A DNA stretch of 64,000 nucleotides, from positions 2,367,218 through 2,431,217 of the forward strand of contig OZ242281.1 of the NCBI GenBank assembly GCA_965207365.1, in the 5' to 3' direction. A program made the position numbers and the translations under genes. Source of the DNA: Dehalococcoidia bacterium. GTDB taxonomy: Bacteria > Chloroflexota > Dehalococcoidia > Bin125. The notes beneath the pieces are model-generated. The model made no database searches. It was not told where the DNA came from and saw nothing but the letters and a program-made list of their open reading frames with translations. This document shows, one piece after another, positions 367 to 32,540 of the stretch; position 1 is the stretch's first letter, and each line of letters begins with the position of its first letter.

Positions 367-3300
367 GTGGTTGAGGTGAACGTGAAGAAGCCTGAATCCG
401 TCCTGATCATTGGCAGCGGTCCGATCGTGATCGGCCAGGCGGCCGAGTTCGACTATGCCGGCACGCAGGCATGCAAAGCCATGACTGAGGAAGGCGTGCG
501 TTCGATCCTGGTCAATTCCAACCCCGCCACGATCATGACCGACGAGGGCGTCGCAGACGAGGTCTACATCGAACCACTGACCGTTCCGGTACTCAGGCGA
601 ATCATCGAGAAAGAGCGTCCCGAGGGTCTGCTGCCCACGCTTGGTGGACAGGTGGGACTCAATCTCGCTGTCGATCTGCATGAGGCGGGCGTGCTGGAAG
701 AATTCAACGTCAGATTGCTCGGCACGCCGTTGGACGCGATTCGCCGCGCCGAGGATCGCGAGCTGTTTCGCCAGGCCATGCGCGATATCGGCGAGCCGAC
801 GCCTCCGTCGGCAGTCGTCACTACGGTCGACCAAGCTCGCGAGGCATTGGAAGAGATCGGACTGCCGGTCGCGATTCGCCCCGCGTACACGCTCGGCGGC
901 ACCGGAGGCGGGTTCGTCCGGACGATGGATGAGTTTGAGCGCGTTGTGCAGACCGGACTGGACGCGTCGCCGATTACGCAGATTCTGATCGAGCGCTCAC
1001 TGTTGGGCTGGAAAGAGGTCGAGTACGAGGTGATGCGCGACGGCGCCGACACGTGCATCACGATTTGCAACATGGAGAACCTCGACCCGATGGGCGTCCA
1101 CACGGGCGATTCCATCGTGGTCGCTCCGTCGCAGACGCTGTCCGACAAGGACTATCAGATGTTGCGCTCTGCCTCGCTGAACATCATTCGTTCGCTGGGC
1201 ATCGAGGGCGGCTGCAACGTCCAGCTCGCGCTGGCGCCGCGACAGGATGTGGTTCCCTGGCCGCCGGAGTCGATGCGCGAAGGCGGCGGCGTTGGCATCC
1301 CGCACGACGAACCCTTGCCGTACTACGTGATCGAGGTCAACCCGCGCGTCAGCCGATCTTCTGCGCTGGCGTCGAAGGCGACCGGCTATCCAATCGCTCG
1401 CGTGGCCGCGAAGATCGCCGCCGGCAAGCGACTGGACGAGATCGCCAACCAGGTCACGGGCCGGACGCAGGCGGCATTCGAGCCGGCGCTTGACTATTGC
1501 GTCGTCAAGATTCCGCGCTGGCCGTTCGACAAGTTCGAGGCCGGCGACCGCGTGCTCGGCACGCAGATGAAGGCCACTGGCGAGGTGATGGCGATCGACC
1601 GTTCCTTCGAGGCTGCGCTGCAGAAAGCGATCCGCTCGCTGGAAGTTGGCGGTAAGTCGGTGCTGTGGGAGGACTCAGAGGCCGAGGCGGAGCCGGTCAA
1701 GGCCGCCGAGACCCCGACCGACATTCGCCTCTGGCACCTGCTCGCCGCGGTGCGGTCAGATGTTCCTCTGGACGAGATCGCCCGACGCTCAGGCGTTGAT
1801 CCCTGGTTCTTGGAACGGCTCGAGAAGATCGTGCTGATGGAGCGTCGCTTGCTCGCGGAACCACTGACGCCAACATTGATGCGTCGCGCCAAGCGGATGG
1901 GCTTTGCCGATGAGCAGATTGCCAACCTGGCTGGCAGCGTCGATGAACGCATCCGAGAGCAACGTGTTGGATGGGGCATCAAGCCGGTCTACAAAATGGT
2001 CGACACCTGCGCGGCCGAGTTCGACGCGGTGACTCCCTATTTCTACTCGACCTATGAAGATGAGAACGAGGCCGAGCCGCAGCAAGGCAATCGCGCTCTC
2101 GTGGTTGGGTCGGGTCCGATCCGCATCGGGCAGGGCATCGAGTTTGACTACGCGTCTGTCAAAGCCGCGCAAGCGCTGCGCGCTGCCGGGTGGGGCGCGG
2201 TGATGGCGAATAGCAATCCCGAGACCGTCTCGACCGATTTCGACACTTCAGATCGCCTGTATTTTGAACCACTCGACGAAGAGGCCGTCCGCGACATCCT
2301 CGAGAACGAAGACGGTTCGCAGAACGGCAATGGCGGAGTCTCATCGATCCTCCAGTTCGGTGGACAGACGGCGATCAATCTCGCCGGCCCGCTGACCAGT
2401 GCTGCGCGTCCGATTCTTGGCTCTTCCGCTGATGTCATCGATCTGGCCGAAGACCGTCGGCGATTCGAACGATTCCTCGCCGACCTCGGCATTCCCCAAC
2501 CTCCGGGCACAGCGGTCAACAACGTCGATGAGGCCGTGCTGGCGGCGGATGCGATTGGCTATCCGGTGCTGGTGCGGCCGTCATACGTCCTCGGTGGACG
2601 CGCGATGGAGATCGTGCAGGGCGTCGGCGATCTGGCTCGCTACGTGGTGCAGGCGCAGGCCGCCGCACCCGGCAAGCCGATCTTGATTGACAAGTATCTG
2701 GCTGGGATTGAGGTCGAAGTTGATGCGATCTGCGGTGGCCCCGGTGACGATGCTGTGTTGATCCCGGGAATCATGGAGCACATCGAACGCGCTGGCGTGC
2801 ATTCGGGCGACTCGATGGCTGTCTATCCGGCGCCGAATCTCCGTGCGAGTGAGGTCGCGAAGATCATCGATTACACCCGCGAGATCGGCATCGGACTCGG
2901 CGTGGCCGGACTGATGAATATCCAGTACGTGATCATGCGCGAGTCGGATGATCATGACAGCGATGTGTTCGTCCTTGAGGTCAATCCACGCGCGAGTCGC
3001 ACCGTGCCATTCCTGAGCAAGATCACCGGCGTGCCGATGGTCGAAGTCGCCGTGCGCGCCATGCTGGGTGAGACGTTGGCCGAACAGGGCTATCCCGGCG
3101 GACTCTGGCCTGCGACACCGCTGGTTGCCGTCAAGGCGCCGGTCTTCTCGATGTCGAAGCTGTCTGGTGTGGACACGCACTTGGGGCCGGAGATGAAATC
3201 CACCGGCGAAGTCATGGGCGTCGATGTCGACTACGACAAGGCGCTGAGCAAGGCGTTGATCGCGGCCGGTATGGCTGTCCCGGCGAAGGGCAAAGCGTTG

Positions 3301-3693
3301 CTCAGCATCGCCGACCAGGACAAGCCGGCCGCCCTCTCGTTAATTCGAGAGTTGGGCGAAGCAGGCTACGAGTTCCATGCCACAATCGGCACGGCGAACC
3401 TGATTCGTGGTCTCGGGTATGAGGTCCACGACGCTCCCAAGCGCGAAGTCGGCGGCGATCCTGACGTGATTGACCTGATTCGCTCGGGACAAATCGACAT
3501 GGTGATCAACACGCCCGAGCAGATCAGCAGCAACATCCGCGATGGGTTCCATATCCGTCGCGCCGCCGCCGAGCAGCGGATCCCCTGCTTCACATCCATC
3601 GATACGGCGCATCATGCCGTCGGCGCGATGCTTGAAGGTGGCGCGGACTACAACATCGCACCGCTTCCCGACTATACGGGCGGCCGGATCTAG
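367..3693 (+). CDS. carB: Carbamoyl-phosphate synthase large subunit
   Basis: 1108 aa. The N-terminus [22 protein letters not shown] is the classic CarB motif. Duplicated ATP-grasp halves start with a second [19 protein letters not shown]. There is an MGS-like C-terminus. GTG start. Confidence 0.97.
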
Positions 3694-3713
3694 GGAACCG
3701 GAGAGTCAATCAG

Positions 3714-4520
3714 GTGCGCCGCGCCGCCGCCCGGGTGATCGAGACGGAAGAAATCTATCCCGGCACGTTCATCACCTGGTACGACGCGCCGTCGCTCTCA
3801 CAGCATGCGCAGCCAGGCCAGTTTGTGATGGTCGACCCCGGCAGCGAGCACGGGACCTTCGATCCGCTCCTACCCCGAGCGTTTTCCTACTATCGATTCC
3901 GCTTCGCCTCGGCGAGGGACTCCGAGCGCCAGTTCGCGTTGCTGTACACCGTCATCGGTCGCGTCACCGAGCAGATGGCGACGATGCAGGCAGGTGACCG
4001 TGTCTGGATGACCGGACCGCTGGGCCGAGGGTTCGACGTGCGACGTACCGCCTCGAATCTGTTGCTCGTTGGTGGCGGCGTGGGGATTGCTCCGCTGGTG
4101 GCATTGGCGGATTCGGAATCCGAACGGTCATCGCGATCGCGATCAATCGTCCTTTGTTTCGGTGCGCGCAGCGCCGACGGTGTCTATCCGGCCGAGCTAT
4201 TGCCGCCGCAGGTCGAGTACCAGGTCTCGACCGAGGATGGCTCCATGGGCAGCCAGGGATTCGTGACAGACTTGTTTGCCAAGTACCTGACCTGGGCCGA
4301 CCAGTCGTTCGCCTGCGGCCCGGTCCCGATGTTCCGCGCAATGTCGCCGATCATCCGGCAAGACGGCATGAATCGCCCGGTCCAAATCCTGATGGAAACC
4401 GAGATGGCCTGCGGAACCGGCATCTGCTACGGCTGCGCCGTCTTCACCAAGCAAGGCGTAAAGCTCTGCTGCAAGGACGGTCCGAGGTTTGAGCTGCTCG
4501 ATGTCTACCCGAACGGCTAA
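3714..4520 (+). CDS. pyrK: Dihydroorotate dehydrogenase electron-transfer subunit (PyrK-like FAD/NAD binding plus 2Fe-2S)
   Basis: 268 aa with an FNR-like fold (LLVGGGVGIAPL). The C-terminal Cys cluster is CGTGICYGCAV...CCKDGP. It lies directly downstream of carB. GTG start preceded by GGAGAG. Confidence 0.88.
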   Translation: MRRAAARVIETEEIYPGTFITWYDAPSLSQHAQPGQFVMVDPGSEHGTFDPLLPRAFSYYRFRFASARDSERQFALLYTVIGRVTEQMATMQAGDRVWMTGPLGRGFDVRRTASNLLLVGGGVGIAPLVALADSESERSSRSRSIVLCFGARSADGVYPAELLPPQVEYQVSTEDGSMGSQGFVTDLFAKYLTWADQSFACGPVPMFRAMSPIIRQDGMNRPVQILMETEMACGTGICYGCAVFTKQGVKLCCKDGPRFELLDVYPNG

Positions 4521-4532
4521 CGCAAGCATCCA

Positions 4533-5129
4533 ATGCCGGAGATTCCTTACAGCGGCCTGACTGGCAACGACGCCAGTGACGCGCATCTATGGAAACATGG
4601 ACTCCTTTACGGGGACGCTGATGAAGTCTGGGAAGGACGAGCCAAGTACTTCGACCAGGAATCCAAGTACTTCACGGACGACAATGGCAACCTGCGGCTT
4701 CGTCCCGACCGACTTGTCATGATTGGCCTTGACGCGGGCAGACGGCTGCTGACCGTCATTCTCGATCCACCCGATGAAGGAGGGTTCTCCCACGTCGTCA
4801 CAGGTTGGCCATCCACAAGAGCTGAGAAAAACTCGGTACGATCAACCGGGAGGAAGGATGCGGCGTCGATGAATGAACACGGTGACGAGTGGCACACGAT
4901 GGACCCGCCGATCGAGGATGCGGTTGAGATTCCCTATGACCCCTCAAAGAGAGGTCCGGGCGCGTTGAAGATCGAGGTAGAGTTTGACCGTGCGGAGATT
5001 AACCGACTGAAAGCCGGAATTCCGAGGGGACCAGTAGGCGTCACTCGCTTCATCAAGAACGCCGCGCTCGCCGAAGCGGATCGGCTGGCCGCTGCGGCTG
5101 AGCGTGAAGAAGTGCCCCAGGCGGACTAG
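4533..5129 (+). CDS. Fused BrnT-like (DUF497) toxin and BrnA-like RHH antitoxin in a single ORF
   Basis: The N-terminal half has HLWKHGLLYGDADEVW...RLVMIGLD...RLLTVIL...HVVTGWPSTRAEK (BrnT-like). The C-terminal half has LKIEVEFDRAEINRLKA...GVTRFIKNAALAEA (RHH, BrnA-like). A paralogous unfused pair is at 13681-14267. Confidence 0.6.
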   Translation: MPEIPYSGLTGNDASDAHLWKHGLLYGDADEVWEGRAKYFDQESKYFTDDNGNLRLRPDRLVMIGLDAGRRLLTVILDPPDEGGFSHVVTGWPSTRAEKNSVRSTGRKDAASMNEHGDEWHTMDPPIEDAVEIPYDPSKRGPGALKIEVEFDRAEINRLKAGIPRGPVGVTRFIKNAALAEADRLAAAAEREEVPQAD

Positions 5130-5144
5130 TTTTACGGAGACACC

Positions 5145-6002
5145 GTGCCGTCAGAAGCTCAACTGATACTCAACGATCTCGTGTTTCCCGAAGGGCCGCG
5201 ATGGCACGAGGGCCGGCTCTGGTTCTCCGATATGCATGCGCATGAAGTCGTTGCTGTCACCTCCGATGGTGAACGCGAGACGATTGTCGAAGTGCCCAAT
5301 CAGCCTTCAGGGCTTGGTTTCCTTCCCGATGGACGCCTGCTGATCGTCTCGATGACGGACCGCAAGCTGCTGCGCCTCGATCCCGACGGCCTGTACGAGG
5401 TCGCCGACATCTCCGATCAAGCGCCCTACCACTGCAACGACATGGTGGTTGACGCTGCCGGCAACGCGTACATCGGCAACTTCGGCTTTGACATCACCGA
5501 TGGCTCCGCGCCTCGTGCGACCACGATTGTGAAGGTCACGACCGATGGTGAATCGTCCATCGTGGCCGACGGCATCCAGTTTCCCAATGGCACGGTGATC
5601 ACACCTGATGGCGGCACGCTGATCGTCGGCGAGAGCTGGGGTCAGCGCTTGACCGCCTTCGACGTCGAGTCGGATGGATCGCTGTCCAATCAGCGCGTCT
5701 GGGCTGACCTGGCCCAAAGCGGCGTTGGGCCTCCAGACGGCATCTGTCTAGACGCTGAAGGTGCGATCTGGGTCGCGGTGCCGACGAATCCTGGCGCACT
5801 GGCTCGTGTCGCCGAGGGCGGCGAAGTCCTGGAACGGATTGACGTGCCGGACATGGGCGTCTACGCCTGCATGCTGGGCGGCGAGGAACGCAAGACGCTG
5901 TTCTCGCTTGAAGCGCCGACATCGAATCCTCAGCCAGGTGATCCGCGACGGGGACGCATTCGAGCCTTCGATGTCGAGGTCGGCGGGGCAGGTCTGCCAT
6001 AG
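5145..6002 (+). CDS. SMP-30/gluconolactonase/LRE-like beta-propeller protein
   Basis: 285 aa. EGPRWHEGRLWFSDMHAHEV...GLGFLPDGRLLIV...YIGNFGFD is the typical SMP-30/regucalcin signature. Confidence 0.82.
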   Translation: MPSEAQLILNDLVFPEGPRWHEGRLWFSDMHAHEVVAVTSDGERETIVEVPNQPSGLGFLPDGRLLIVSMTDRKLLRLDPDGLYEVADISDQAPYHCNDMVVDAAGNAYIGNFGFDITDGSAPRATTIVKVTTDGESSIVADGIQFPNGTVITPDGGTLIVGESWGQRLTAFDVESDGSLSNQRVWADLAQSGVGPPDGICLDAEGAIWVAVPTNPGALARVAEGGEVLERIDVPDMGVYACMLGGEERKTLFSLEAPTSNPQPGDPRRGRIRAFDVEVGGAGLP

Positions 6003-7654: not shown

Positions 7655-7729
7655 TGGAGCGGGGGACGGGATTCGAACCCGCGGCCACCTGCTTGGAAGG
7701 CAGGAGCTCTACCCCTGAGCTACCCCCGC
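7655..7729 (-). tRNA. tRNA-Gly (anticodon TCC), CCA encoded
   Basis: Reverse complement is GCGGGGGTAGCTCAGGGGTAGAGCTCCTGCCTTCCAAGCAGGTGGCCGCGGGTTCGAATCCCGTCCCCCGCTCCA. It shows a cloverleaf with GTTCGAATC in the T-loop and the anticodon loop CTTCCAA. Confidence 0.93.
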
Positions 7730-7743
7730 TTGCCCAGATCAGC

Positions 7744-7782
7744 TTAGCGGCCATCCGCCCGGACTCAACGAGCCCGGGCGGC
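7744..7782. terminator. GC-rich hairpin between the rpoD stop and tRNA-Gly (possible rpoD terminator or tRNA promoter-proximal structure)
   Basis: GCGGCCATCCGCCCGG-n10-CCGGGCGGCCGC forms a stem. There is no clear U-tract. Confidence 0.3.
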
Positions 7783-7789
7783 CGCTTGC

Positions 7790-9403
<1,614 letters not shown>

Positions 9404-9621
9404 CCGATCCCCCTTTCGTTCAGTGCTACTGGCTGTTCTTGCTGCTCCAAGCAGCAGGGTTCCAGCGCGCTCTCCAACAGTACGAAAATGGCTGCGAGTT
9501 TGTTCCCGAACCTGCAAGCAACTGCGTCGCGCTGTACGGGAGAAGTGAGCCCGCCGTCACCGACGCGGCGTCAACGTCACAAAGTGACAGTCGGGATGTG
9601 GCGAAGAGAACGGAGTCTTCG

Positions 9622-10257
9622 TCAGTCTGCCACAGCGGCGACCCGGTCTGCTGCTCTGTCTGCCGCCATATCCGCCGTTTTGACCGCCGCTTTGCCCGGA
9701 GCGTGTCGCACATCGTCGGGCCGCATCGCACGCGTCCAGGCCGCGAACTCAAGCATGATCCCGTCGGGATCGTAGAAGTAAACGGAGCGCACGAAGACGC
9801 CCGGATGATTCTCGCGAGCGATGCCGCGCGCCGAATCGTCGTGGTTCAGAATTGGCGTGCAACGCACGCCGGAGTCAATCAGTTTGTCCCTCAGGGCCTG
9901 GATCTCGTCCGCGTCGACATTGAAGGCGACGTGGTTCATCGATGCCACGGCGGTCACCAGCTCCGCCGACGGATCGAAGAACGTATTGGGATCGGGAGAC
10001 GCAATTCCCGGCGCCGGCTCGGGCGCATTGGGGAAGTTGAAGAAGGCCAGACAGTCGCCGTTGCCGATGTCGAAAAAGAAGTGTTGTCCCATGTCGCCAG
10101 GCAGCTCGATCGTCTTGACCAGCGGGAAACCCAAGACCCCGCTGTAGAAGTCGACCGTGCGCTGCATGTCGTGACAGACGAGCGCCAGATGGTTGATCCC
10201 TGAGACGTTGAAGTTGCCAACCGTTGACTTGGTCGGCTGGGCGTCATTGGTCGTCAT
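9622..10257 (-). CDS. VOC-family (glyoxalase/bleomycin-resistance/dioxygenase-like) protein
   Basis: 211 aa. INHLALVCHDMQRTVDFYSGVLGF...VAFNVDADEIQ gives the two beta-alpha-beta-beta-beta modules. Confidence 0.72.
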   Translation of the reverse strand: MTTNDAQPTKSTVGNFNVSGINHLALVCHDMQRTVDFYSGVLGFPLVKTIELPGDMGQHFFFDIGNGDCLAFFNFPNAPEPAPGIASPDPNTFFDPSAELVTAVASMNHVAFNVDADEIQALRDKLIDSGVRCTPILNHDDSARGIARENHPGVFVRSVYFYDPDGIMLEFAAWTRAMRPDDVRHAPGKAAVKTADMAADRAADRVAAVAD

Positions 10258-13606: not shown

Positions 13607-13680
13607 TCCTGACAACCCAGCAAAGCAATCACGAAGCCCCGCTCCGGCGGGGCTTCGTCGTCACAGTGTTGTGATTCGAC

Positions 13681-14019
13681 ATGCCTGAAATCCCGTATCG
13701 CGGTGTCACTGGCAATGATGTCAGTGACGAGCATTTGTCGTCGCACGGCCTGACGTTTGACGATGCCAATGACGTCTGGACTGGTCCGGCCAAGTACTTT
13801 CCTCAACCTTCCAGACCTCGATTCGACGATTTGGGAAACGAGGGTGTTCAACCTGAACGAGTCAAGATGGTCGGCCCGGATCTTCGTGGTCGTCTTCTGA
13901 CCTTCATCCTCGAGATACCAAGTCATGACCAACTGTCCCATGTCGTCACAGGGTGGATATCGACTCCTGGCGAGCAAACTCACTACCATCAACCAGGAGG
14001 AAGGATGCGCATTCGATGA
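13681..14019 (+). CDS. BrnT-like (DUF497) toxin
   Basis: 112 aa. HLSSHGLTFDDANDVWTGPAKYF...RLLTFILE...HVVTGWISTPGE. It is paralogous to the N-terminal half of 4533-5129. Confidence 0.62.
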   Translation: MPEIPYRGVTGNDVSDEHLSSHGLTFDDANDVWTGPAKYFPQPSRPRFDDLGNEGVQPERVKMVGPDLRGRLLTFILEIPSHDQLSHVVTGWISTPGEQTHYHQPGGRMRIR

Positions 14020-14267
14020 CTAGACCACGATCGCCAGTACATATTGATACGCCAATCGACGACCTAGAAGAGATTCCCTACGACCCCGCCAAGAAGGGTC
14101 CTGGGATCATGCGTCTTGAGATCGAGTTCAATCGGGACGAGATTAATCGACTCAAGGCGAGACATCCCCGCGGACCGCTCATTCGCTTTATCAAACAGGC
14201 CGCGCTCGAAGCCGCCGACGCCGAGGCCGCCCGCCAGTCCCAACCACCAATTGAGGCCGCCGACTGA
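14016..14267 (+). CDS. BrnA-like RHH antitoxin
   Basis: ATGA start/stop overlap with the toxin, with GGAGGAAGG immediately upstream. MRLEIEFNRDEINRLKA...LIRFIKQAALEAA. It is paralogous to the C-terminal half of 4533-5129. The longer ORF from 13953 was rejected. Confidence 0.58.
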   Translation: MTRPRSPVHIDTPIDDLEEIPYDPAKKGPGIMRLEIEFNRDEINRLKARHPRGPLIRFIKQAALEAADAEAARQSQPPIEAAD

Positions 14268-32099: not shown

Positions 32100-32540
32100 G
32101 CTGTTTCGACCTTCCCATATCCCCTCTCCCCCCCTTGCGGGGGGAGATGTCACGGAGTGACAGAGGGGGGTCGGCTGACAATGACCTGATATGGATCCCG
32201 AGCTGCGGACCCCCTCCGCCCCGCATCCCCTGGTCAAGCCAGGGGCAGGCAAGTGCGTGGCAGGCTTTCGGCATCTCCCCCGCAAGGAGACTGATGCACA
32301 ACCTCTCAACCGCCCCCGCCTCCGAGCGGGGGCCTGTTCCTTCCCCGGCTTCTGCTCGGCGGTCATGCTTGTCGCTCGTATCTGTTCAACAGGAACTGAT
32401 CCGTGCTGCCACGGCCAGCTCAAAGCGGGTCCCCGCTCGGGGGCGGGGACGGGAAACTCAGTCATGCATCAGTCTCGCAAGGGGGGAGAAAGCGAGTATC
32501 TCAATACCCTCTGCTTGCCGCGGGAATGACGGAGTTGGTT
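32100..32540. repeat. Repeat-dense 500-bp leader upstream of metH: family-D hairpin (32121-32170), several G/C hairpins, and a B-type REP (32505-32530)
   Basis: CCCCTCTCCCCCCCTTGCGGGGGGAGATGTCACGGAGTGACAGAGGGGGG; GCCCCCGCCTCCGAGCGGGGGC; GGGTCCCCGCTCGGGGGCGGGGACGGG; CTTGCCGCGGGAATGACGGAG. Confidence 0.7.

What the first reader, a model, noticed from the sequence alone, without database searches (positions are those of the whole stretch)
4533..5129. BrnT-like toxin and BrnA-like antitoxin fused into one ORF by a 1-nt indel, with an unfused paralog elsewhere
The copy at 13681-14267 is a canonical bicistron.
- The toxin stop TGA overlaps the antitoxin ATG (ATGA).
- A GGAGGAAGG SD precedes the antitoxin start.

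The copy at 4533-5129 retains the same GGAGGAAGGATGCG sequence.
- A 32-nt vs 31-nt length difference upstream places toxin and antitoxin in the same frame.
- The stop is lost as well, giving a single 198-aa toxin-linker-antitoxin polypeptide.

This could be a naturally fused (cis-neutralised) toxin-antitoxin, a decaying module, or a sequencing indel. It sits immediately after carB-pyrK, in the position where pyrD would be expected.
Basis: seen in the sequence. Interest (0 to 1): 0.6.

Follow-up and report, generated by a model that had tools for sequence, protein, structure and literature searches.

The report
Frameshift-fused BrnT-like toxin–antitoxin pair
One extra A in a short run of A's has merged the two overlapping genes of an ordinary two-gene toxin–antitoxin module into a single reading frame; every related genome keeps the genes separate, so this is a recent mutation or an assembly slip, not an evolved fusion protein.

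Summary
ORF 4533-5129 (198 aa) is toxin, then a 13-residue linker, then antitoxin. The paralog at 13681-14267 is a normal bicistron with an ATGA overlap.

The cause is a single A inserted in a homopolymer: A5 at 4827-4831 here, A4 in six ~95% identical syntenic contigs. Removing one A restores a 112-aa toxin ending ...TRYDQPGGRMRRR* and the ATGA overlap. The "linker" is therefore the toxin tail read out of frame, and the old TGA is still present at 4870-4872.

None of the 43 related loci is fused in frame. None of the 13 toxin homologues, 39 antitoxin homologues or 54 cluster representatives is a clean toxin–antitoxin fusion. One locus (L028) and one low-coverage protein (P0060) show comparable frameshifts.

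The toxin has a BrnT fold: AF2 pLDDT 94, Foldseek top hits 7VD7 and 3U97, hhalign 93%. It scores below Pfam's BrnT cut-off. The antitoxin matches no family; a ribbon-helix-helix (RHH) domain is only suggested.

It is the only frame-breaking indel inside a gene in ~13.8 kb of comparable sequence. I put a real lineage-specific mutation at ~0.55, an assembly error at ~0.33, and an evolved single-chain module at ~0.07. BrnT–BrnA fusions are already catalogued (PMC11980606). Interest is low.

The parts
4533..5129 (+). Fused ORF, 198 aa: toxin core, out-of-frame linker, then the complete antitoxin
4533..4829 (+). Toxin portion in its native frame (codons 1-99). It is 92% identical to the 112-aa orthologue P0001. 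It contains the KHG motif (K21, H22) and SHVVTGW (H87). It also carries a derived P66L change in the conserved MIGPD motif.
   Evidence: catalytic-residue mapping from PMC13284704
4823..4825 (+). TGA in the antitoxin frame, just upstream of the A-run. It closes that frame upstream, so a +1 insertion gives a fusion only if it falls between 4826 and 4868.
4827..4831 (+). A5 homopolymer that carries the extra A. It is A4 in all six orthologous contigs, and it is the only homopolymer of 4 or more bases in the fusion-permissive stretch.
4830..4868 (+). 13-codon 'linker' NSVRSTGRKDAAS. This is the toxin tail TRYDQPGGRMRRR read in the shifted frame.
4849..4857 (+). GGAGGAAGG Shine-Dalgarno-like sequence for the antitoxin. 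It is embedded in the toxin codons for PGGR and is conserved across the family.
4869..4872 (+). Ancestral ATGA overlap. The antitoxin ATG (4869-4871) is now the internal Met113. The former toxin stop TGA (4870-4872) is retained but out of frame.
4869..5129 (+). Complete antitoxin coding part (86 aa plus TAG), 86-88% identical to stand-alone antitoxins P0014 and P0016
13681..14019 (+). Paralog B toxin, 112 aa, intact; AF2 model with a BrnT fold
14016..14267 (+). Paralog B antitoxin, 83 aa, with an ATGA overlap onto the toxin stop
367..4520 (+). Upstream carB (367-3693) and a pyrK-like gene (3714-4520). The toxin start lies 12 nt after the pyrK stop, and no promoter-like site was found.
5145..6002 (+). 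Downstream SMP-30/gluconolactonase-like gene, the conserved right-hand neighbour

Best explanation
Copy A is an ordinary toxin-then-antitoxin bicistron of a Dehalococcoidia-restricted, BrnT-fold family. In this lineage it has gained one extra A in an A4 run, 38 nt before the gene junction.

In the family the antitoxin ATG overlaps the toxin TGA (ATGA), and the antitoxin frame is stop-free from 4826 onward. The insertion therefore carries ribosomes past the old stop, through 13 out-of-frame codons, and into the antitoxin frame. The result is one 198-aa chain.

I take the insertion to be a real, recent mutation rather than an evolved design. Its inferred effects are:
- Every toxin molecule is tethered 1:1 to its antitoxin.
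- The last helix is broken at residue 100, and the conserved R101-Y102 and the basic tail are lost.
- Termination-reinitiation coupling is abolished.
- The antitoxin's own SD and ATG remain available for internal initiation.

The net effect would be a disarmed or permanently neutralised toxin, which is a common fate of chromosomal toxin genes.

Shown here: the insertion, that it is the derived state, that it is unique to this sequence, and the BrnT fold. Inferred: that the insertion is in the organism rather than the assembly, that the chain is expressed, and that the toxin is neutralised.
For: **The insertion is a derived, single event**
- Six syntenic contigs, ~95% identical and from several samples, all read GAG-AAAACTC and encode 112 aa plus 86 aa with a 4-nt overlap.
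- Removing one A restores the consensus tail and the ATGA overlap.

**The fused architecture is not conserved**
- 36 of 37 GTDB species-representative loci have intact toxins of 107-112 aa.
- 34 of 43 loci have the ATGA overlap and 3 have TGATG. None is fused in frame.
- The 13 toxin homologues and 39 antitoxin homologues are all stand-alone.
- Of 54 representatives among 1.84 billion proteins, none is a clean fusion.

**Evidence for a real mutation rather than an error**
- In 10.3 kb compared with L002 and 3.5 kb compared with L007, this is the only indel inside a gene that is not a multiple of 3 or locally compensated. ORFs of 1108 and 1140 aa are intact.
- The same gene also carries a derived P66L change at a site that is Pro in every A-type orthologue.
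- Toxin omega is 0.31, against 0.035-0.18 for the neighbouring genes.
- Independent toxin frameshifts occur in relatives: L028 and P0056.

**Family assignment**
- AF2 model of the copy B toxin: pLDDT 94.2.
- Foldseek top hits: 7vd7_A, and 3u97 (BrnT) with TM 0.77 and rmsd 2.4 Å.
- hhalign against BrnT: probability 93%, E 3.3e-7.
Against: - No reads are available, and a 1-nt homopolymer indel is the classic assembly error.
- The exact fused protein, and the window's other toxin-antitoxin proteins, are absent from the gene-position collection, so no second assembly of this strain could be consulted.
- The rest of the gene shows almost no decay: 4 synonymous and 4 non-synonymous differences. If the mutation is real it is very young.
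- P0060, the most similar fusion-like relative, comes from a 5x-coverage long-read contig and is probably error-ridden.
- The putative catalytic residues (K21, H22, H87) lie upstream of the shift, so loss of activity is not demonstrated.
Confidence: 0.55

Rival explanations
1. Assembly or sequencing artefact. The organism has A4 and a normal bicistron, and the extra A is a homopolymer miscall or a consensus error in the assembly.
For: - The change is exactly one base in a homopolymer.
- All 11 contigs that carry the orthologue P0001 encode the split form.
- The corrected sequence is a perfect family member.
- Fusion-like relatives include a 5x-coverage contig.
- There is selection bias: a genome scan preferentially flags rare errors.
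Against: - A5 is a short run.
- No other frame-breaking indel lies inside a gene in ~13.8 kb that aligns at ~95% identity to relatives. Very long ORFs elsewhere in the window are intact, so the assembly's indel error rate is low.
- The same small gene also carries an unusual P66L substitution.
Confidence: 0.33
2. An evolved, functional single-chain toxin-antitoxin. The protein would be neutralised in cis and released by proteolysis or a trigger, like the CapRel-type fused modules or the catalogued BrnT-BrnA fusions.
For: - Functional fused toxin-antitoxin proteins exist, and 32 BrnT-BrnA fusion genes have been listed (PMC11980606; PMC9712102).
- The fused chain keeps the KHG and H87 residues and a complete antitoxin.
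- The insertion sits in the only 43-nt stretch where a +1 insertion yields a fusion.
Against: - The fusion is not conserved in any relative.
- The linker is simply out-of-frame toxin sequence with no adaptation.
- The conserved R101-Y102 and the last helix are disrupted.
- The AF2 model of the fused chain is of low confidence, with pLDDT 46.6.
- At least one catalogued fusion (E. coli VED11481.1) is itself compatible with a plain frameshift.
Confidence: 0.07
3. A recoding site. The A5 run would promote +1 ribosomal frameshifting or transcriptional slippage, so that both the native toxin and the fusion are made.
For: Five A's allow tRNA-Lys to re-pair perfectly in the +1 frame. This is my own reasoning from the sequence.
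Against: - No orthologue has A5.
- There is no slow or stop codon in the A site, and no upstream stimulator. The SD-like sequence lies downstream of the run.
- Transcriptional slippage normally needs longer runs (general knowledge).
Confidence: 0.02

Closest known systems
BrnT/BrnA of Brucella abortus (PDB 3U97; Pfam PF04365 and PF14384)
   Same: - Gene order is toxin first, then antitoxin.
- The toxin is small, with the same fold: Foldseek probability 1.00, TM 0.77, rmsd 2.4 Å.
- Shared motifs are KHG..F.DA and a C-terminal E..RY.
- The antitoxin probably has a C-terminal strand-helix-helix.
   Different: - Only 16-17% identity, and scores fall below the Pfam gathering cut-off (14.7 bits for copy B against 34.5; no hit for copy A).
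- The toxin has a longer insert between the N-terminal helices and the sheet, and a conserved basic tail QPGGRMRRR.
- The antitoxin has no BrnA Pfam match.
Salmonella Typhimurium toxin of the toxin-antitoxin complex 7VD7
   Same: It is the best sequence and structure match in the PDB: profile E 1.4e-4 and Foldseek E 1.6e-3.
   Different: The relationship is distant (17% identity), and the antitoxins are unrelated by sequence.
RelS-RelI (Rv2663-Rv2664) of M. tuberculosis, PDB 9SDC (PMC13284704)
   Same: - It is a BrnT-like toxin encoded first, with an antitoxin that fits no known family.
- It shares the 'IGPD..GRLL' strand motif.
- The K/H and His residues needed for its toxicity have counterparts here.
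   Different: - The sequence match is weak (E 0.1).
- RelI is an HTH protein, whereas this antitoxin looks RHH-like.
- The RelS target, the 3' end of 16S rRNA, cannot be assumed here.
Catalogued BrnT-BrnA single-gene fusions (mBio 2025, PMC11980606)
   Same: - The architecture is the same: one ORF with the BrnT domain followed by an RHH-type antitoxin.
- Several of the listed fusions lack the BrnT C-terminal motif, as this one does.
- The E. coli example is codon-compatible with a frameshift origin.
   Different: Those were found through Pfam BrnT hits. This family falls below that threshold. Here the origin of the fusion can be pinned to one base by comparison with ~95% identical orthologues.
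CapRel(SJ46)-type fused toxin-antitoxin defence proteins (PMC9712102)
   Same: A single chain in which an antitoxin domain follows a toxin domain.
   Different: The toxin class is unrelated. That fusion is conserved and its function has been shown experimentally. Neither holds here.

Membership tests
BrnT toxin family (Pfam PF04365 / DUF497) | Sequence score at or above the Pfam gathering cut-off (34.5 bits) | tested here: not met
   Copy B scores 14.7 bits (E 0.038), and the copy A fused ORF has no hit. Across the family, 12 of 14 and 21 of 40 members give hits at a permissive E-value limit (10 and 1); the best are E 2.6e-5 and 1.9e-6.
BrnT toxin family (Pfam PF04365 / DUF497) | Remote homology by profile comparison | tested here: met
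   hhalign of family alignment A7 against BrnT domains gives probability 93%, E 3.3e-7 over 86 columns. Cross-controls give probability below 0.5%. The profile search against the PDB finds 7vd7_A at E 1.4e-4.
BrnT toxin family (Pfam PF04365 / DUF497) | BrnT (RelE-like / BECR) three-dimensional fold | tested here: met
   The AF2 model has pLDDT 94.2 and pTM 0.85. The two top Foldseek hits are 7vd7_A and 3u97, both at probability 1.00. All other hits are at 0.57 or below.
BrnT toxin family (Pfam PF04365 / DUF497) | Residues needed for toxicity (BrnT K16, H17, R72; RelS K9, H10, H64) | tested here: inconclusive
   His of the KHG motif is invariant in the close family (H22). Lys is present in copy A (K21) but is Ser in copy B. 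H87 is nearly invariant. The BrnT R72 position reads TGW here. The residue list comes from PMC13284704.
BrnT toxin family (Pfam PF04365 / DUF497) | Ribonuclease activity and growth inhibition relieved by the partner protein | not testable with these tools
   This needs expression and RNase assays.
BrnA antitoxin family (Pfam PF14384) | Sequence match to the family model | tested here: not met
   No BrnA hit for either copy, nor for 24 and 19 family members. NCBIfam gives nothing.
BrnA antitoxin family (Pfam PF14384) | C-terminal ribbon-helix-helix (RHH) domain | tested here: inconclusive
   hhalign against the BrnA RHH region gives E 0.002, probability 12-14%, and aligns IEVEFDR.EI.RLK and G.TRFIK.AAL. 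One member gives ParG at E 0.12. The fused AF2 model shows helices 153-160 and 176-192, but its pLDDT is only 46.6.
Type II toxin-antitoxin bicistron (toxin first) | Two small adjacent genes that are translationally coupled or overlapping and co-conserved | tested here: met
   Copy B has the ATGA overlap. 34 of 43 family loci have ATGA and 3 have TGATG, with the SD embedded in the toxin tail. Copy A meets this only after one A is removed.
Evolved single-gene (fused) toxin-antitoxin module | The fused architecture is conserved among relatives | tested here: not met
   There is no in-frame fusion in 43 loci or in any homologue list. The exact protein is not on record.
Programmed frameshift / recoding site | A slippery sequence conserved in orthologues, with a stimulatory element | tested here: not met
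   Orthologues have A4, not A5. No upstream stimulator is visible in the sequence.

The most novel reading that the evidence does not exclude
The extra A is real and the 198-aa chain is made. It would then work as a self-neutralised single-chain BrnT-like module, caught within a few mutations of its birth from a bicistron. That would be a natural snapshot of how the catalogued BrnT-BrnA fusion genes arise, with the split ancestor still present in ~95% identical relatives and an intact paralog 9 kb away.
Probability: 0.07. Interest if true: 0.45.

Novelty: new member of a known kind. Interest (0 to 1): 0.2.

Why it matters
For annotation, this ORF should be flagged as a frameshifted toxin gene plus an antitoxin gene, or checked against reads. 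It should not be named a fusion protein.

More broadly, any toxin-first module with an ATGA-type overlap can be turned into a "fusion" by one base. The E. coli entry in the published fusion list is codon-compatible with exactly that origin. Catalogues of fused toxin–antitoxin genes should therefore be screened against close orthologues before function is inferred.

The family itself may merit more attention than the fusion:
- It is BrnT-fold and restricted to Dehalococcoidia.
- Its antitoxin belongs to no described family.
- It sits at fixed sites inside housekeeping operons, sometimes as tandem arrays.

Tried and rejected
- **Single-sequence Pfam, NCBIfam and PADLOC searches.** These gave only one weak BrnT hit, so I moved to family profiles and structure.
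- **A combined alignment of the fused ORF with toxins and antitoxins.** MAFFT misaligned it three times. It worked only with 3-6 antitoxins.
- **AF2 model of the fused chain.** The model was poor (pLDDT 46.6), so I drew no conclusion about cis-packing and did not use it for fold search.
- **Independent evidence for A5.** A JGI metagenome scan for the junction 27-mer, allowing A4 or A5, found nothing. Exact-protein look-ups for three of the window's proteins also found nothing. There is therefore no independent assembly of this strain.
- **P0060 (165 aa).** It looked like a second fusion. It comes from a 5x-coverage contig, and its sequence after the junction diverges from the antitoxin.
- **P0066 (1376 aa, 9 matched stretches).** This is a chance match to a repeat protein.
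- **Heaton et al. 2012 (the BrnT paper).** It is not held in the library. The BrnT residue data were taken second-hand from PMC13284704.
- **Programmed frameshifting.** Considered and rejected because the site is not conserved.

Full report
**Observation**

ORF 4533-5129 on the + strand is a single 198-aa frame. The paralog is two genes: toxin 13681-14019 (112 aa) and antitoxin 14016-14267 (83 aa). They share an ATGA overlap, preceded by GGAGGAAGG at 13996-14004. Copy A keeps the same GGAGGAAGGATGCG at 4849-4862.

One detail is not: the toxin stop was not separately lost. The ATGA at 4869-4872 is intact, and its TGA is merely out of frame.

**Where the extra base is, and which state is derived**

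The closest toxin homologue, P0001, is 92% identical and 112 aa long. It is encoded on 11 metagenome contigs from several samples. Six were fetched (L001-L006). They are ~95% identical to the window and fully syntenic: carA, a GNAT gene, carB, pyrK, toxin (112 aa), antitoxin (86 aa), then an SMP-30/gluconolactonase-like gene.

All six read GAG-AAAACTC, with four A's, where the window has five at 4827-4831. Removing one A from the window gives ...AEKTRYDQPGGRMRRR*. This is the family's conserved tail, ending in the ATGA overlap with the antitoxin start. The 13-residue "linker" NSVRSTGRKDAAS (4830-4868) is that tail read in the shifted frame.

The antitoxin frame is closed upstream by a TGA at 4823-4825. 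Only an insertion between 4826 and 4868 can produce a fusion, and the A-run is the only homopolymer of 4 or more bases in that stretch.

**Is the fusion conserved anywhere?**

It is not.

- All 13 toxin homologues are 109-112 aa and end in RYxQPGGRMRRR-like tails.
- All 39 antitoxin homologues are stand-alone proteins of 47-107 aa.
- A full HMMER scan of 1.84 billion cluster representatives with the fused ORF gave 54 hits, essentially all of single-gene size. The exceptions are listed below.
  - P0060 (165 aa) is another frameshifted toxin that reads ...STRRKDAALM... in the same shifted frame. It comes from a 5x-coverage contig.
  - P0056 (98 aa) has a frameshifted tail.
  - P0066 is a chance match to a repeat protein.
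- A scan of one genome per GTDB species found 37 loci, all in Dehalococcoidia/Chloroflexota metagenome-assembled genomes (MAGs).
  - 36 have intact toxins.
  - Across all 43 loci, 34 have the ATGA overlap and 3 have TGATG. None is fused in frame.
  - L028, a copy-B orthologue, has an independent toxin frameshift.
- The exact fused protein is not on record.

**What the two proteins are**

*Toxin.* Single-sequence searches barely see it. Pfam BrnT_toxin scores 14.7 bits against a cut-off of 34.5 for copy B, and gives nothing for copy A. Family-level evidence is consistent and much stronger:

- At a permissive E-value limit (10 and 1), 12 of 14 and 21 of 40 members hit PF04365, with a best E of 1.9e-6.
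- A family profile finds the Salmonella toxin 7vd7_A at E 1.4e-4. The match includes the C-terminal motif VVTGWpa..E..rY against IRIISARKADRKERNRYE.
- hhalign against BrnT domains taken from a published table gives probability 93%, E 3.3e-7 over 86 columns. Cross-controls stay below 0.5%.
- The AF2 model of the copy B toxin is confident, with pLDDT 94.2 and pTM 0.85. Its order of elements is strand, two helices, a six-strand sheet, then a C-terminal helix at 96-103.
- Its two top Foldseek hits in the PDB are 7VD7 and BrnT 3U97 (TM 0.77, rmsd 2.4 Å). Both have probability 1.00, and nothing else exceeds 0.57.

The toxin therefore has a BrnT fold and is a distant relative. It is not a Pfam-threshold member.

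*Antitoxin.* It matches no Pfam, NCBIfam or PADLOC model and no solved structure by sequence. There is a weak profile alignment to the BrnA RHH region (E 0.002, probability 12-14%). The sequence pattern is strand (KIEVEF), helix (RAEINRLK), G-x-T, helix (RFIKNAALAEA). Together these suggest a ribbon-helix-helix, but this is inference.

**What the frameshift does to the protein**

The shift begins at codon 100, in the middle of the predicted last helix. It removes the nearly invariant R101 and invariant Y102, plus the basic tail.

Residues shown by others to matter for BrnT (K16, H17, R72) and RelS (K9, H10, H64) are reported in PMC13284704. They map to K21/H22 and H87 here, all upstream of the shift. 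Catalytic inactivation is therefore not demonstrated.

What is certain from the sequence:
- The toxin part can no longer terminate before the antitoxin.
- Any full-length product carries a complete antitoxin.
- The SD and ATG for independent antitoxin synthesis remain.

I infer a disarmed or permanently cis-neutralised toxin. The AF2 model of the fused chain was too poor (pLDDT 46.6) to say anything about packing.

**Real mutation or artefact?**

No reads are available, and no other assembly of this strain was found.

In favour of a real mutation:
- In 10.3 kb aligned to L002 and 3.5 kb aligned to L007 (~95% identity), this is the only indel inside a gene that is not a multiple of three or locally compensated.
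- ORFs of 1108 and 1140 aa are intact, so the assembly is not indel-prone.
- The same 339-nt gene carries a derived P66L change at a position that is Pro in all A-type orthologues.
- Its dN/dS is 0.31, against 0.035-0.18 for the flanking genes, although this rests on only 8 substitutions.
- Toxin genes of this family are independently broken elsewhere, in L028 and P0056.

In favour of an artefact:
- It is exactly a 1-nt homopolymer change.
- The rest of the gene is pristine.
- A scan is biased toward flagging rare errors.

My estimate is 0.55 for a real mutation, 0.33 for an artefact, 0.07 for an evolved functional fusion and 0.02 for recoding.

**Comparison with what is known**

BrnT–BrnA single-gene fusions have already been catalogued: 28 prokaryotic and 4 eukaryote-labelled (PMC11980606). 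Several of the listed sequences lack the BrnT C-terminal motif.

For the E. coli entry VED11481.1, I tested whether its 18-residue linker LFESSVHEKQIVKRGIAM can be a +1-frame reading of DNA encoding VIRIISARKADRKERNRYE. All 18 residues are codon-compatible. That entry is therefore very likely a frameshift product too. The window's case is the same phenomenon in a more divergent family, and here the causal base can be identified.

**Context**

The A-type module sits 12-13 nt after the pyrK stop in the window, in L001-L006 and in at least nine species-representative genomes. The B-type module sits ~22 nt after a GC-rich hairpin behind isocitrate lyase in many others. The two types lie ~9 kb apart in several complete MAG chromosomes.

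No promoter-like site precedes either copy. Some genomes carry two, or three or more, tandem toxin-antitoxin pairs after pyrK.

**Verdict**

The antitoxin belongs to no described family and is only possibly RHH. The fusion is a secondary, unconserved frameshift product or an assembly error, of a kind already described. Interest is low (0.2), and the novelty class is a new member of a known kind.

Noticed in passing
L025 2399-3596; L030 2317-3987 (sites orthologous to window 4521-5144): In some Dehalococcoidia genomes the site between pyrK and the SMP-30/gluconolactonase-like (SGL) gene holds tandem toxin-antitoxin pairs of this family: two in L025, and two complete pairs followed by a third toxin gene in L030. 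The site is therefore an array or duplication hot spot.
   Followed up: partly
window 4521-4532 and 13607-13680; loci L007-L043: Both paralog types occupy fixed, vertically conserved positions inside or behind housekeeping operons (after pyrK, and after isocitrate lyase). The upstream gaps are only 12-22 nt and hold no promoter-like site. This is unusual for toxin-antitoxin modules, which are normally mobile and autoregulated from their own promoter.
   Followed up: partly
window 4869-5129 compared with L002 6336-6596: The antitoxin is mosaic relative to the ~95% identical orthologue. Its dS is 0.53, against 0.05 for the adjacent toxin. Its C-terminal tail resembles that of a different relative (P0014). 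This suggests recombination within the module.
   Followed up: no
P0032; L025 3273-3596; L030 2607-2930: Gene callers and ORF lists often extend antitoxins of this family upstream into the open overlapping frame. The result is spurious N-terminal extensions of the form '...STRRKDA..M'.
   Followed up: yes
window 7655-7729 (-), 7680-7781 and 32113-32230; L001-L004 ~9186-9692: A tRNA-Gly(TCC) gene lies here. Next to it, the orthologous contigs carry ~500 bp more sequence. That extra piece includes a repeat of window 7680-7781 and a 120-nt element ~85% identical to window 32113-32230 on the reverse strand. It may be a small integrated or repeated element.
   Followed up: no
PMC11980606 Table S2, entry VED11481.1 (E. 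coli): This published 'BrnTA fusion' has an 18-residue linker that is fully codon-compatible with a +1-frame reading of the BrnT C-terminus. It is very likely a frameshift product rather than an evolved fusion.
   Followed up: partly
L028 3001-3335 (CBDCDO010000001.1): The copy-B orthologue in another MAG has an independent frameshift in the toxin, at about codon 70. An ORF then runs from the shifted toxin frame into the antitoxin, reading '...ARRKDANSMTTRRSPVH'.
   Followed up: partly
window 13681-14019, residue 21: The copy B toxin has Ser where copy A and most relatives have the Lys of the KHG motif. This Lys is the counterpart of BrnT K16 and RelS K9, which others report as important for toxicity. 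The 'intact' paralog may therefore itself be attenuated.
   Followed up: no
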